Source of the DNA: Escherichia coli
Lineage (GTDB): Bacteria; Pseudomonadota; Gammaproteobacteria; Enterobacterales; Enterobacteriaceae
Length of the DNA stretch: 64,000 nucleotides
Reading direction: 5' to 3' (one strand)
Assembly: GCF_009931435.1 (NCBI RefSeq)
Contig: NZ_CP043414.1
The position numbers were made by a program. This document shows, in pieces, positions 37,601 through 40,600 of the stretch. Within the stretch, counting starts at the first letter, position 1. Each line of letters starts with the position of its first letter.

Positions 37601-40600
37601 TAACCGTCCAGCAGATAACCGAGGTCGCCGGTATCTAACCAGCCCGTCGCGGCAATCTCGTCTTGCGAAACCTGGTCGCCAAAGTAACCGCTCATCAGGC
37701 TGGGGCCGGAGATGCAAATATGGCCTACCACACGTTCCGCGACCGGCATACCTGCTTCATTGCGGATTTCAATGCCATGTTCCGGCAACGCTTTACCGCA
37801 GTTGACGAAAGTCGATACGGCGCGTGTTTCAGCACCCGGCGCGACGGCTTTGCCCTGATATTCAAGGATGTCGCGATCCACTTCGTTAACCACAACCCCG
37901 GAGGCTTCATCAGAGAAGCTGACAGCCAGCGCATTTTCTGCCAGTCCGTAGCACGGCATGAAAGTTTTATCGTCAAAGTTAACCTGACGGAAACATTCAG
38001 CGAATTGATGGAGTTGTTCTGCGGAGATCGGCTCAGCACCAATACCAGCAACGCGCCAGCAGGAAAGATCCAGTTCAGCGAGATCTTTTTCATTCACGCG
38101 GCGCTGGCACAATTCATAGCCAAACGGCGGCGCAACAGAAACGGTGCCGCGATTTTTACTGATCAATTTAAGCCATTGCAGAGGACGCATGGCAAAATCC
38201 TGAGTGCGCAAATAATCTACTGAGAGCTGCGTGGCGACGGGGGTCAGGAGAAAGCCGACCAGTCCCATATCATGGTAGAAAGGCAGCCAGGAGACGCAGC
38301 GGTCGCCAGGGCGTAATTTAATGCCATCGTGGCTTATAGCACGTAGATTAGCCATCACTTCGCGATGGGTGATAATGACGCCACGGGGAAAACGGGTGCT
38401 GCCGGAGGTGTACTGGAGGTAGGCGATATCGTTCGGAACTGGACGCTGGAGTACAACATCGGCTTCCGGTAATGCCTTAAACCAGGCGTGGCTTAAAACA
38501 TGTAATTCGGGGTTGTTATGCGTAGCAGCATTGACCAGTGGCAACCACTCATCACCAGTGATAATGGCTGCGGGCTGGCAACTTGCCAGTAAACCCTGCA
38601 GTTTGGCGCTCCAGGAATCCCGCTGACCGACGCCCATTGGAATTGCCAACGGGACGGCGACTAAGCCGGCATACTGGCAGGCAAAAAAAGCCTCTACAAA
38701 CCCGCTACTCGTTTCGGCAATCAGCGCCACGCGATCGCCTTTTTTCAGATTCAGTGATAACAACCGCTTCGCACCAGCTTCGGCACGCGCTTTTAACGTC
38801 TGATATTCCAGTTGATCTTCAAGTTGGCAACGTCTGTCATAAAAATTCATTCCGGCGCTACTCAGAGCGGCGTAGTCCAAAGCATCAACCAGCGTTGGAA
38901 AATCGGCATAGCGCATAGGTAGGGAATGCGTAAAGATGTTATTAGACATATACACCACGAAAAAAATTGGATATCAGAAATAAAATGACAATAATGCGGT
39001 GGATTATATAGGCATAAAAGATAAATGAGATAGTATTTTCATCGGTGCGATATTGAACATTGATTTAAATAATAGGTTTGGCTTTGTTGTTTTTATTGTG
39101 AATGATATTTAATTTATGAATATATTAAGAAGAAGCCTTGTTTGGTTGCCTTAAATCGACAAAAGGCATTGAGGCGCTTCTGTGTAGTCTCTGACCTTAT
39201 CTTAATTATTAATAAATACTATTTATTCTTTGTTTGTATTCATTGGGTTGATTATTAAGATGCCGTTCGTTGCTGTTGCAATCTGTTTGTCACCGTTAAT
39301 TATTTGTTATCCACAGAGATATGGAATGCGATCTGCTGATGATTAAAATTGAAAAAGTAATTAATAAAAATGACCTTAAGGCATTTATCGCTTTTCCGTC
39401 ATCACTTTATCCCGATGATCCAAACTGGATACCCCCTTTGTTCATTGAACGCAGCGAGCATTTGTCGGCGAAGAATCCGGGGACGGACCATATTATCTGG
39501 CAGGCGTGGGTAGCAAAAAAAGCGGGGCAGATAGTCGGGCGGATTACCGCGCAAATCGATACCTTGCACCGCGAGCGTTACGGTGACGATACCGGTCATT
39601 TTGGCATGATTGACGCCATTGATGATCCGCAGGTTTTTGCCGCGTTGTTTGGCGCAGCGGAAGCATGGTTGAAGTTACAAGGCGCAAGTAAGATCAGCGG
39701 GCCTTTCAGCCTGAATATCAATCAGGAAAGCGGATTACTGATTGAAGGTTTCGACACTCCGCCCTGTGCGATGATGCCGCACGGTAAACCGTGGTATGCC
39801 GCGCATATTGAACAATTGGGTTATCACAAAGGTATTGATTTACTGGCGTGGTGGATGCAACGAACCGATCTCACGTTCTCTCCGGCGCTAAAAAAACTGA
39901 TGGATCAGGTGCGCAAAAAGGTGACCATTCGCTGCATCAAGCGCCAGCGGTTTGCCGAAGAGATGCTGATCCTGCGTGAGATTTTCAACTCTGGCTGGCA
40001 GCACAACTGGGGATTTGTGCCGTTTACCGAACATGAATTTGCGACCATGGGCGATCAACTTAAATATCTGGTGCCGGACGATATGATCTACATCGCTGAG
40101 ATTGGTTCTGCACCCTGCGCGTTTATAGTCGGCTTGCCGAACATCAACGAGGCGATTGCCGATCTGAACGGATCGCTCTTTCCCTTCGGCTGGGCAAAAT
40201 TGCTGTGGCGCTTAAAAGTCAGCGGTGTGCGAACTGCGCGAGTGCCGCTGATGGGCGTGCGTGACGAGTATCAGTTCAGCCGCATCGGCCCGGTGATTGC
40301 GCTGTTATTGATTGAAGCCTTACGCGATCCGTTTGCTCGCCGGAAGATCGATGCGCTGGAGATGTCATGGATCCTCGAAACCAATACAGGCATGAATAAC
40401 ATGCTGGAACGCATTGGAGCGGAGCCGTACAAGCGTTACCGATTGTATGAAAAGCAGATTTGATGGCAGTCACCCCTGCTTCATCTCCAGCGGCACCGCC
40501 GAGCGAATCAAATGGTGGCCTTCCAGTTCGATATCGTGGAGATTCTTTTTCACGGTCCGCACATGATCACGTGCGGCGCGCTGGGCGACGTGCGGCAGTC

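What the first reader, a model, noticed from the sequence alone, without database searches (positions are those of the whole stretch)
38959..39320. Strongly AT-rich divergent control region for the lipid operon and yghO
This 362-bp intergenic segment is far more AT-rich than its flanks and contains phased A/T tracts. Such regions are typical H-NS targets, which would imply the locus is silenced under laboratory conditions and induced by a specific signal. A TGTCAC-containing element (ttgtcaccgtt, about 39287..39297) resembles the repeat in the yghT/yghS region.
Basis: seen in the sequence. Interest (0 to 1): 0.45.

Follow-up and report, generated by a model that had tools for sequence, protein, structure and literature searches.

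The report
AT-rich promoter region, E. coli sphingolipid genes
This is the AT-rich DNA between two back-to-back gene sets that let most E. coli strains (not K-12) make ceramide-type lipids; it is an ordinary-looking promoter region whose regulation is unstudied, and the claimed phased A-tracts and shared TGTCAC motif do not hold up.

Summary
The AT-richness is real. The segment has 29.8% GC against 51.9% for the window, placing it in the lowest 0.4% of 362-bp windows, though it is one of four such troughs in the window.

It lies between aasR-cerR-acpR-spt (minus strand) and yghO (plus strand). Together these are the published E. coli sphingolipid/ceramide gene set (Padilla-Gomez 2022). The divergent layout and the AT-richness are conserved in Citrobacter, Serratia and Pluralibacter, but the sequence is not.

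Two parts of the observation fail:
- **A/T tracts:** they are neither enriched nor significantly phased.
- **TGTCAC element:** it shares only a 7-mer with the yghT/yghS repeat, is polymorphic within E. coli (G/T at 39289), and is not conserved in Citrobacter.

H-NS silencing is plausible but unproven:
- BL21(DE3) carrying the native cluster makes no detectable 3-oxo-sphinganine.
- UPEC CFT073 ChIP-seq lists acpR, yghS and yghT as H-NS-bound, but not yghO or aasR. The intergenic DNA itself is not reported.

New leads:
- An invariant 65-bp block (38978-39042) carries a perfect minus-strand TATAAT.
- An ArcA-like direct-repeat box (39295-39309) is invariant in E. coli; P is about 0.01, uncorrected for the 19 motifs tried.

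Verdict: an ordinary AT-rich divergent promoter region of a known cluster. Interest is low to moderate.

The parts
38950..39320 (.). Intergenic region between aasR and yghO by RefSeq starts (371 bp, GC 0.302). It extends to 39338 if yghO starts at the conserved ATG 39339.
37240..38949 (-). aasR: fatty acyl-AMP ligase, the specialised acyl-ACP synthetase. First gene of the leftward operon. The most likely start is ATG 38949.
   Evidence: Pfam AMP-binding and NCBIfam NF006624 at 873 bits. N-terminal extension conserved across genera. Function shown for the BL21 orthologue ECD_02851.
36329..37243 (-). cerR/epi: NAD-dependent epimerase/dehydratase-family reductase.
   Evidence: ECD_02852 in PMC9386255
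36049..36297 (-). acpR: specialised acyl carrier protein. AT-rich (GC 0.406). Its CFT073 orthologue c3714 is listed as H-NS-bound.
34877..36049 (-). spt: serine palmitoyltransferase, last gene of the leftward operon.
   Evidence: NCBIfam equivalog NF047599, 599 bits against a cut-off of 500; ECD_02854 activity
39321..40463 (+). yghO: GNAT-like N-acyltransferase, homologue of Caulobacter CC_1154 (bCerS/aca). The RefSeq start is 39321. The start conserved in other genera is 39339.
38978..39042 (.). 65-bp run invariant in 15 Escherichia sequences (10 haplotypes). It is the best-conserved part against Citrobacter. It is contiguous with a low-diversity 5' end of aasR, so constraint and local genealogy cannot be separated.
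39003..39008 (-). Perfect TATAAT on the aasR strand, with a poor -35 (ATCTCA, 17-bp spacer). Candidate aasR promoter, predicted TSS about 38996 and leader about 47 nt. Prediction only.
   Evidence: lies in the invariant block
39087..39126 (+). Second conserved island (39087-39110 invariant). It holds the best-scoring plus-strand promoter-like pair: GTGAAT 39098-39103, a 17-bp spacer, TATATT 39121-39126. Predicted TSS about 39133, giving a yghO leader of about 190-205 nt. Prediction only.
39130..39200 (.). Most variable and least AT-rich central segment (pi 0.06-0.10). No compensatory changes in its small hairpin. Folding is not better than shuffles.
39287..39297 (+). Present as written, but polymorphic (39289 G/T, 39293 C/T) and not conserved in Citrobacter.
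39284..39309 (+). ArcA-like direct repeats: TGTTT 39284, CGTTA 39294 and TGTTA 39305, at 10-11 bp phasing. The 15-mer GTTAATTATTTGTTA (39295-39309) matches the ArcA consensus at 13/15. 39294-39309 is invariant in Escherichia. Low-confidence lead.
   Evidence: consensus from PMC4173790; absent in other genera

Best explanation
The segment is the shared 5' regulatory region of the E. coli sphingolipid (ceramide) biosynthesis genes. Leftward runs the operon aasR-cerR-acpR-spt, which makes acyl-AcpR, condenses it with serine and reduces the product. Rightward runs yghO, the N-acyltransferase (cerS) homologue.

It most likely carries two back-to-back sigma-70 promoters. The aasR promoter probably uses the perfect TATAAT at 39008-39003, inside a 65-bp invariant block. 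The yghO promoter is not pinned down. It is either distal (-10 at 39121-39126, with a long unstructured leader) or proximal (around 39276-39303).

The roughly 70% AT, TpA-rich DNA is the kind bound by H-NS/StpA. I infer that such binding, together with intrinsically weak promoters and weak ribosome-binding sites, keeps expression low in laboratory culture until an unknown signal relieves it.

Shown: the composition, the gene identities, the conserved architecture, the conservation pattern, and the absence of product in BL21. Inferred: the promoter positions, H-NS occupancy of the intergenic DNA, and silencing.

My confidence by component is about 0.9 that this is the divergent promoter region of the sphingolipid cluster. 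It is about 0.45 that H-NS/StpA contributes materially to its low expression. The overall figure of 0.55 is for the composite statement.
For: - Composition and position.
- Gene identities: Pfam and NCBIfam. BL21 orthologues ECD_02850-02854 are assigned aca(yghO)/aasR/epi/acpR/spt, and AasR+AcpR+SPT are active when overexpressed (PMC9386255).
- The divergent architecture is conserved in Serratia, Citrobacter, Pluralibacter and L007, while the genes beyond yghO differ.
- In those genera the intergenic region is again the most AT-rich, or among the most AT-rich, in the locus: 0.32-0.39 against locus values of 0.53-0.57. Yet the sequence is only about 52% identical between E. coli and Citrobacter.
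- Invariant blocks coincide with the best promoter-like hexamers on each strand.
- Low native activity: empty-vector BL21(DE3) forms no 3-oxo-sphinganine.
- H-NS binds within the operon (acpR = c3714, occupancy 0.216, lost in the hns deletion) and at yghS/yghT in CFT073.
- TpA density is 0.103 per bp, like the other approximately 0.30-GC intergenic regions nearby.
Against: - No experiment reports H-NS occupancy or hns-dependent expression for this intergenic DNA.
- In CFT073, yghO and aasR are not in the per-gene H-NS-bound list, whereas yghS and yghT, which flank a shorter AT-rich region, are.
- There is no good match to the H-NS high-affinity motif: one 8/10 hit, not enriched.
- The flanking genes have ordinary GC, so this is not an AT-rich foreign island.
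- The simple promoter scan finds fewer consensus promoters than shuffles do, and my PWM scores are modest.
- The authors of PMC9386255 suggest that chromosomal ECD_02852 and yghO may be active in BL21, because sphinganine- and ceramide-like spots appear when 3-oxo-sphinganine is supplied. That would argue against complete silencing.
- The invariant block adjoins a low-diversity part of aasR, so its conservation may partly reflect local genealogy.
Confidence: 0.55

Rival explanations
1. Plain weak-promoter region with no silencer. The AT-richness is what many E. coli promoter-bearing intergenic regions have (UP-like DNA, AT-biased mutation, weak constraint). Low expression then reflects weak -35/-10 elements, weak Shine-Dalgarno sequences or a missing activator, not H-NS.
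For: - Four of 15 neighbouring intergenic regions have about 0.30 GC.
- Diversity in the intergenic region (pi 0.052) is about that of third codon positions (0.058-0.107), which indicates mostly weak constraint.
- yghO and aasR are not in the CFT073 H-NS-bound gene list.
- There is no H-NS motif.
- All candidate SD pairings are weak, -2.8 to -3.3 kcal/mol.
Against: - AT-richness is retained across genera despite sequence turnover.
- H-NS does bind inside the operon and at the neighbouring yghS/yghT.
- DNA of this composition and length is generally H-NS-bound in enterobacteria. This rests on established knowledge (Navarre 2006, Lucchini 2006, Grainger 2006), not on a test here.
Confidence: 0.35
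2. Redox control by ArcA-P. A two-to-three-repeat ArcA operator at 39284-39309 overlaps a proximal yghO promoter (-35 TTGCAA 39276-39281, -10 AATTAT 39298-39303). It would repress yghO when oxygen is scarce. This could act alone or on top of H-NS.
For: - GTTAATTATTTGTTA matches the 15-bp ArcA consensus at 13/15, with TGTTA-type cores at 10-11 bp phasing. The consensus and its rules are taken from PMC4173790.
- Only about 1% of dinucleotide shuffles of the intergenic region do as well.
- The whole 64-kb window has just two such sites against 0.12 expected.
- The other site lies in the glcC|glcD control region. From my recollection of Pellicer et al. 1999, that region is ArcA-P-repressed.
- 39294-39309 is invariant in 15 Escherichia sequences although flanked by polymorphic sites.
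Against: - Nineteen consensus motifs were tried, so the corrected P is about 0.2.
- There is no comparable site anywhere in the Citrobacter, Serratia or Pluralibacter loci.
- The proximal promoter it would overlap scores poorly.
- No binding or expression data exist.
Confidence: 0.15
3. One reading: a TGTCAC-containing operator, shared with the yghT/yghS intergenic repeat, lets one regulator coordinate both divergent regions.
For: - TTGTCAC occurs once here and twice in the yghT/yghS repeat.
- The two intergenic regions share more 7-mers than shuffles do (40 against 21 +/- 5.5), but these are AT-rich words.
Against: - Only 7 bases are shared. The yghT/yghS copies are TTGTnACAA palindromes and this one is not.
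- The longest shared word (9 nt) is not significant; 78% of shuffles reach it.
- The G is polymorphic at intermediate frequency in E. coli.
- It is not conserved in Citrobacter.
Confidence: 0.04
4. Intrinsically curved DNA from helically phased A-tracts organises the region.
For: A single periodogram bin at 10.5 bp has an uncorrected p of 0.026.
Against: There are fewer A/T tracts than in shuffles (6 against 8.4). After scanning 10-11.5 bp the p-value is 0.18. Tract spacings are irregular: 20.5, 34, 20, 54.5 and 70.5 bp.
Confidence: 0.05
5. The region hides a small gene, an sRNA or a structured mRNA leader (riboswitch or attenuator).
For: If the distal promoter is used, the yghO leader would be about 200 nt. 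Two 38-codon TTG-start ORFs exist.
Against: - No Rfam match at E <= 1.
- Folding z-scores are -0.22 and +0.32.
- There is no terminator-like site.
- The ORFs lie in the most variable part, and the hairpin shows no compensatory change.
Confidence: 0.03

Closest known systems
Rhodobacterial ceramide gene set aasR-cerR-acpR-spt plus cerS (Caulobacter CC_1165-CC_1162 and CC_1154; E. coli BL21 ECD_02851-02854 and yghO ECD_02850)
   Same: Same five genes in the same operon order. yghO was already named as the aca/cerS homologue. AasR, AcpR and SPT from E. coli were shown to make 3-oxo-sphinganine when overexpressed (PMC9386255; PMC11324152).
   Different: Those papers deal with the enzymes only. Nothing is reported on the promoter region, its regulators, or the conditions under which E. 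coli expresses the genes. In Caulobacter, cerS is not adjacent and divergent to aasR as it is here.
H-NS/StpA-bound AT-rich promoter regions of enterobacteria (for example the proU, bgl and hilA types, and the yghS/yghT and acpR sites in CFT073)
   Same: About 70% AT over 370-390 bp, a high TpA density, a position over divergent promoters, low expression in laboratory culture, and H-NS-bound genes nearby in the same locus.
   Different: Occupancy of this DNA has not been shown. The flanking genes are not flagged as bound in CFT073. There is no high-affinity motif. The surrounding genes are not AT-rich.
ArcA-P operators (icdA P1 type: TGTTA direct repeats at 11-bp spacing that overlap sigma-70 elements)
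   Same: A 13/15 match to GTTAATTAAATGTTA, with two to three TGTTA-like cores at 10-11 bp phasing immediately upstream of yghO.
   Different: It is untested experimentally. It is not conserved outside Escherichia. Overlap with a real promoter is unproven.

Membership tests
Rhodobacterial sphingolipid (ceramide) biosynthesis cluster | Serine palmitoyltransferase of the proteobacterial type | tested here: met
   NCBIfam equivalog NF047599 scores 599.4 bits against a cut-off of 500. The BL21 orthologue is active (PMC9386255).
Rhodobacterial sphingolipid (ceramide) biosynthesis cluster | spt preceded by a specialised ACP, with an acyl-ACP synthetase (aasR) and a reductase (cerR/epi) in the same operon | tested here: met
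   PP-binding, AMP-binding/FAAL (NF006624, 873 bits) and Epimerase-family domains occur in the order aasR-cerR-acpR-spt. This is the same order as CC_1165-CC_1162.
Rhodobacterial sphingolipid (ceramide) biosynthesis cluster | N-acyltransferase (cerS/aca) homologous to Caulobacter CC_1154 | not tested
   YghO has no Pfam, NCBIfam or PDB sequence hit. The homology to CC_1154 is taken from PMC9386255 Fig. 9. What I did show is tight linkage to the operon in four other genera.
Rhodobacterial sphingolipid (ceramide) biosynthesis cluster | The native organism produces ceramide or sphingolipid | not testable with these tools
   Empty-vector BL21(DE3) shows no 3-oxo-sphinganine. No lipidomics of a natively induced E. 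coli was found.
H-NS-silenced promoter region | AT content well above the genome average over hundreds of bp, rich in TpA steps | tested here: met
   GC is 0.298-0.302 over 362-371 bp, and TpA density is 0.103 per bp.
H-NS-silenced promoter region | High-affinity nucleation motif (tCGATAAATT-like) | tested here: not met
   The best match is 8/10 (39111-39120). The motif is not enriched over shuffles.
H-NS-silenced promoter region | H-NS occupancy in vivo (ChIP) | tested here: inconclusive
   The CFT073 per-gene list includes acpR (c3714, 0.216), yghS and yghT, but not yghO or aasR. Intergenic DNA is not reported, and the per-gene sheet is cut before this locus.
H-NS-silenced promoter region | Derepression in hns (stpA) mutants | not testable with these tools
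   No data were found.
Intrinsically curved DNA with phased A-tracts | A/T tracts of 4 or more repeated at about 10.5-bp phasing, above chance | tested here: not met
   There are 6 tracts against 8.4 expected. The periodicity p-value is 0.18 over 10-11.5 bp.
ArcA-P operator | Two or more TGTTA-type direct repeats at 11-bp centre-to-centre spacing, close to the 15-bp consensus | tested here: met
   13/15 at 39295-39309, with cores at 39284, 39294 and 39305. P is about 0.01 uncorrected.
ArcA-P operator | Overlap with the sigma-70 -35/-10 elements of the regulated promoter | tested here: inconclusive
   It overlaps only a weak candidate promoter (TTGCAA, 16-bp spacer, AATTAT). No TSS data exist.
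ArcA-P operator | Conservation in orthologous regions, or ArcA binding data | tested here: not met
   Invariant in 15 Escherichia sequences, but no site with 3 or fewer mismatches exists in the Citrobacter, Serratia or Pluralibacter loci. Binding was not tested.
Regulatory element shared with the yghT/yghS intergenic repeat | An extended common motif, conserved in both regions | tested here: not met
   Only TTGTCAC is shared. It is polymorphic in E. coli and not conserved in Citrobacter.

The most novel reading that the evidence does not exclude
This intergenic region may be the switch of a cryptic E. coli sphingolipid pathway. The region is present in about 76% of complete E. coli genomes and lost from K-12. 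H-NS/StpA would keep both divergent promoters low. An Escherichia-specific ArcA-P operator just upstream of yghO would tie the N-acylation (ceramide-forming) step to oxygen or redox state. E. coli would then make ceramides only in particular niches, such as aerobic or host-associated ones. That would explain why sphingolipids have never been counted among its lipids.
Probability: 0.1. Interest if true: 0.6.

Novelty: new member of a known kind. Interest (0 to 1): 0.3.

Why it matters
E. coli is the textbook example of a bacterium with only three major glycerophospholipids. Yet about three quarters of complete E. coli genomes carry an intact-looking ceramide synthesis gene set, which K-12 lost through an IS5-associated deletion. 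The enzymes work when overexpressed, but nobody has reported when the native genes are switched on.

Whatever controls them must act on this 370-390 bp. The concrete candidates defined here make that question directly testable with reporters, TSS mapping and existing ChIP data:
- an invariant block carrying a perfect -10 for aasR;
- a second conserved island;
- an invariant ArcA-like box next to yghO.

Tried and rejected
- **Phased A-tracts or curvature:** rejected by tract counts and the periodogram against shuffles. I did not compute a wedge-model curvature because I did not trust remembered parameters.
- **Shared TGTCAC operator:** rejected. I also checked whether it could be a Pho box by eye and with the PhoB consensus. 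The best match was 13/18, elsewhere in the region and not significant.
- **Consensus scans** for Fur, CRP, FNR, PhoP, PhoB, IHF, Lrp, OmpR, FadR, CpxR, BasR, RcsB, LexA, NarL, Fis, SlyA, LeuO and the H-NS motif. None was better than shuffles. The BasR-like CTTAAT half-site is not conserved among alleles.
- **Known RNA families, terminators and structured leaders:** nothing found.
- **Small ORFs:** two 38-codon TTG ORFs lie in the variable part, so I judged them spurious.
- **Loss of the Shine-Dalgarno sequence in Escherichia yghO.** TAAGG is conserved in four other genera. The energy difference is small, -3.8 against -2.9 to -3.3 kcal/mol, so I dropped it as a mechanism.
- **Direct H-NS evidence for the intergenic region:**
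  - The ETEC H10407 paper has no H-NS peak table.
  - No supplements are held for Kahramanoglou 2011.
  - The Higashi 2016 supplements do not mention these genes.
  - The per-gene sheet of the CFT073 data set is cut before this locus.
- **Stankeviciute 2022** (bCerS) could not be read.
- **Cross-genus motif discovery by alignment:** the regions are too diverged except between E. coli and Citrobacter.
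Full report
**What is at the coordinates**

The window is an E. coli chromosome segment running from hybG to sslE. The best match is strain 2013C-4282, at 99.5% over 1.1 kb.

The finding lies between two divergent transcription units:
- A minus-strand operon of four genes: a fatty acyl-AMP ligase (37240-38949), an NAD-dependent epimerase/dehydratase-family reductase (36329-37243), an acyl carrier protein (36049-36297) and a serine palmitoyltransferase (34877-36049).
- The plus-strand gene yghO (39321-40463).

The domain assignments are solid. Spt passes the NCBIfam equivalog cut-off (599 bits against 500). The ligase hits the FAAL subfamily model at 873 bits. The ACP and the reductase have clear Pfam domains. 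YghO has no Pfam, NCBIfam or PDB sequence hit.

**Checking the observation**

*Composition.* The segment 38959-39320 has GC 0.298. Its flanks have 0.508 and 0.478, and the window mean is 0.519. Only 0.4% of 362-bp windows are as low.

The AT-richness is therefore real and large, but it is not unique. The window has four such troughs. Of 15 intergenic regions in the neighbourhood, four sit near 0.30 GC: gss|pitB, yghT|yghS, this one, and glcA|sslE.

*Boundaries.* They need small corrections. YghO homologues in other genera are 374 aa and start MI[KHQR]IEKV, which corresponds to ATG 39339 here. The non-coding stretch is thus 371-389 bp.

*Phased A/T tracts.* This claim fails. There are six runs of four or more A or T, against 8.4 +/- 2.0 in dinucleotide shuffles. 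Their spacings are irregular. The AA/TT periodicity over 10-11.5 bp is matched by 18% of shuffles.

*The ttgtcaccgtt element.* It is at 39287-39297 as stated. Its resemblance to the yghT/yghS repeat (AATGTCACAATTAACCATTGTCACAATAAGG) is limited to the 7-mer TTGTCAC. In 15 Escherichia sequences (10 haplotypes), the G of TGTCAC is G in eight and T in seven, and two also carry C->T at 39293. In the alignable Citrobacter region nothing corresponds to it. It is not a conserved shared element.

**What the locus is**

The literature already names it. Padilla-Gomez et al. 2022 (PMC9386255) assign the BL21(DE3) genes as follows:

| BL21(DE3) gene | Assignment |
|---|---|
| ECD_02851 | aasR, specialised acyl-ACP synthetase |
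| ECD_02852 | epi/cerR |
| ECD_02853 | acpR |
| ECD_02854 | spt |
| ECD_02850 (yghO) | aca/cerS, homologue of Caulobacter CC_1154 |

They show that co-expressed AasR, AcpR and SPT from E. coli make 3-oxo-sphinganine. Cells with empty vectors make none. The gene order equals that of Caulobacter CC_1165-CC_1162.

So the 'lipid operon' is the ceramide core operon, and yghO is the putative ceramide synthase.

My own neighbourhood analysis adds that the back-to-back aasR operon/yghO arrangement is kept in Serratia liquefaciens, Citrobacter amalonaticus, Pluralibacter gergoviae and a further metagenomic contig. The genes beyond yghO differ in each case: dgkA, deoC, usp, and glcC in E. coli. The unit therefore moves and is kept together.

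The intergenic region is present in 4,135 of 5,426 complete E. coli genomes. K-12 lacks it. An IS5 sits where the 3' end of yghQ, the transport genes, the operon, this region and the first ~40 bp of yghO should be. K-12-based regulatory resources are therefore silent about it.

**Anatomy and conservation of the region**

*Within Escherichia.* Diversity in the region (pi 0.052) is about that of third codon positions in the flanking genes (0.058 and 0.107). Most of the region is therefore weakly constrained.

Two islands stand out:
- A 65-bp run, 38978-39042, is invariant in all 15 sequences.
- A second island spans 39087-39110, with low diversity to about 39130.

The first island contains a perfect TATAAT on the aasR strand (39008-39003). 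The second contains the best plus-strand promoter-like pair, with its -10 TATATT at 39121-39126. The middle of the region, 39130-39200, is the most variable part.

One caveat applies. The first island adjoins a low-diversity 5' part of aasR, so functional constraint and local genealogy are confounded.

*Between genera.* The E. coli and Citrobacter regions are still alignable: score 89.5 against 19.9 +/- 14 for shuffles, 52% identity, best over 38950-39009. Serratia and Pluralibacter have regions of 700-800 bp with no recognisable similarity except at the gene starts.

What is conserved across genera is the composition. The region has GC 0.32-0.39 against locus values of 0.53-0.57, and it is the most AT-rich intergenic region in its locus, or tied for it.

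*Other features.* There is no Rfam family, no terminator-like site, no significant RNA structure and no credible small ORF.

**H-NS**

*In favour:*
- The composition, and a TpA density of 0.103 per bp.
- The cross-genus persistence of AT-richness.
- The absence of product in BL21 that carries the genes.
- Published H-NS ChIP-seq in UPEC CFT073 (PMC9765446, Data set S1, sheet 1E). The list of H-NS-bound genes contains c3714 (249 nt), with occupancy 0.216 that falls to 0.04 in the hns deletion. It also contains yghS (0.141) and yghT (0.207). In NC_004431.1 the only 249-nt gene between kpsM and yghS is acpR. acpR is also the most AT-rich gene of the operon, at GC 0.406.

*Against or neutral:*
- The rows of that list run directly from kpsM to c3714 to yghS. 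So yghO, aasR, cerR and spt are not classed as bound.
- The analysis is per gene, so the intergenic DNA is not reported. The per-gene signal sheet is cut before this locus.
- The CFT073 intergenic region is one of the haplotypes I aligned, with GC 0.32.
- There is no good match to the H-NS high-affinity motif.
- The flanking genes have ordinary GC.
- The BL21 authors suspect that chromosomal ECD_02852 and yghO have some activity.

I conclude that H-NS/StpA involvement is plausible (about 0.45) but not shown.

**A new lead: an ArcA-like box**

Of 19 regulator consensus sequences scanned, only ArcA stands out. GTTAATTATTTGTTA at 39295-39309 matches GTTAATTAAATGTTA at 13 of 15 positions. TGTTA-like cores sit at 39284, 39294 and 39305, a phasing of 10-11 bp. 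The consensus and the 11-bp direct-repeat rule come from Park and Kiley 2014.

About 1% of dinucleotide shuffles of the region do as well. In the whole 64-kb window there are two such sites against 0.12 expected. The other lies in the glcC|glcD control region. From memory of Pellicer et al. 1999, that region is repressed by ArcA-P, so it acts as an informal positive control.

Positions 39294-39309 are invariant in the 15 Escherichia sequences although they are flanked by polymorphic sites.

Against this lead:
- With 19 motifs tried, the corrected P is about 0.2.
- No comparable site exists in the Citrobacter, Serratia or Pluralibacter loci.
- The promoter it would overlap is weak.

I rate it at 0.15.

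**Most likely mechanism**

This is an ordinary divergent promoter region. The aasR promoter is probably at the invariant TATAAT, with a predicted TSS near 38996. The yghO promoter is either distal (TSS near 39133, with a long unstructured leader) or proximal (TSS near 39310).

Both units have weak ribosome-binding sites. Expression in culture is low, probably through H-NS/StpA occupancy of the AT-rich DNA, through lack of an activating signal, or both.

The gene identities, architecture, composition and conservation pattern are shown. The promoter positions and the silencing are inferred.

**Novelty and score**

The gene cluster is published. An AT-rich divergent promoter region is a familiar kind of feature. 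Its regulation is uncharacterised.

The finding is worth a modest score because it marks where the control of a cryptic and widespread E. coli sphingolipid pathway must lie. However, two of the three specific claims fail and the third is untested. Interest is 0.3.

Noticed in passing
window 39361 onward; L014 4952-5967: K-12-lineage genomes match only from window 39361. An IS5 replaces the 3' end of yghQ, the transport genes, the whole aasR-spt operon, this intergenic region and the first ~40 bp of yghO. K-12 therefore lacks the sphingolipid cluster, and its 'yghO' is a 5'-altered remnant.
   Followed up: partly
window 28271-28301 (yghT|yghS intergenic region): A direct repeat, AATGTCACAATTAACCATTGTCACAATAAGG, at 16-bp spacing. 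Each copy contains a TTGTnACAA palindrome. In CFT073 both yghS and yghT are listed as H-NS-bound (occupancy 0.14 and 0.21). The binding protein, if any, is unknown.
   Followed up: partly
window 41324-41338 (-), glcC|glcD intergenic region: The only other GTTA-N6-TGTTA / ArcA-consensus match (2 mismatches) in the 64-kb window lies in the glcC-glcD divergent control region. This fits ArcA-P repression of the glc operon as I recall it from the literature.
   Followed up: partly
window 36000-36400 (acpR and the acpR|cerR junction): An internal AT-rich patch inside the operon: acpR GC is 0.406 and the 31-bp acpR|cerR spacer is 0.32. The CFT073 orthologue c3714 is H-NS-bound while its neighbours are not. 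It may be an intragenic H-NS site or a spurious promoter.
   Followed up: partly
L001 10098-11167; L010 1-317; L015 521-688: Sporadic decay of the locus in individual strains. The lptF-like gene is frameshifted in 2013C-4282. There is an internal stop in the ligase of MB64 and an internal stop in yghO of AR_0089. In the window all genes from yghT to yghO are intact.
   Followed up: partly
window 28367-34842: Next to the ceramide genes lie yghS/yghR (dTMP-kinase-like / ATP-binding), a flippase-like yghQ (Polysacc_synt), a hypothetical protein, a YtfJ-family protein, and a second LptF/LptG-like permease pair. The same genes accompany the cluster in Citrobacter and Pluralibacter. They look like a dedicated modification and export module for the lipid.
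   Followed up: partly
window 38950-39338 compared with 5,426 genomes: The window's allele of the intergenic region is rare: at least 99% identity in only 16 genomes, with 3,767 genomes at 90-95%. The flanking 1.1 kb is mostly 95-99% identical. The region is therefore unusually diverged for E. coli core-like DNA.
   Followed up: partly
window 39310-39338: The translation start of yghO is remodelled in Escherichia. The TAAGG Shine-Dalgarno conserved in four other genera is absent, and an upstream in-frame ATG (39321, MECDLL) is present. Some alleles carry a 5-bp insertion just upstream (..CCCACAGAACAGAAC..). The energetic difference in SD pairing is small.
   Followed up: yes
window 40464-40469 compared with L001 17865-18002: In strain 2013C-4282 the yghO|glcC spacer is 138 bp (GC 0.55). 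In the window and in CFT073 it is about 6 bp. The closest relative therefore carries an insertion of about 132 bp there, not characterised.
   Followed up: no
L002 8211-9000; L004 8296-9000: The equivalent intergenic regions in Serratia and Pluralibacter are 700-800 bp, twice the E. coli length, and include GC-normal stretches. They may hold additional uncalled elements.
   Followed up: no
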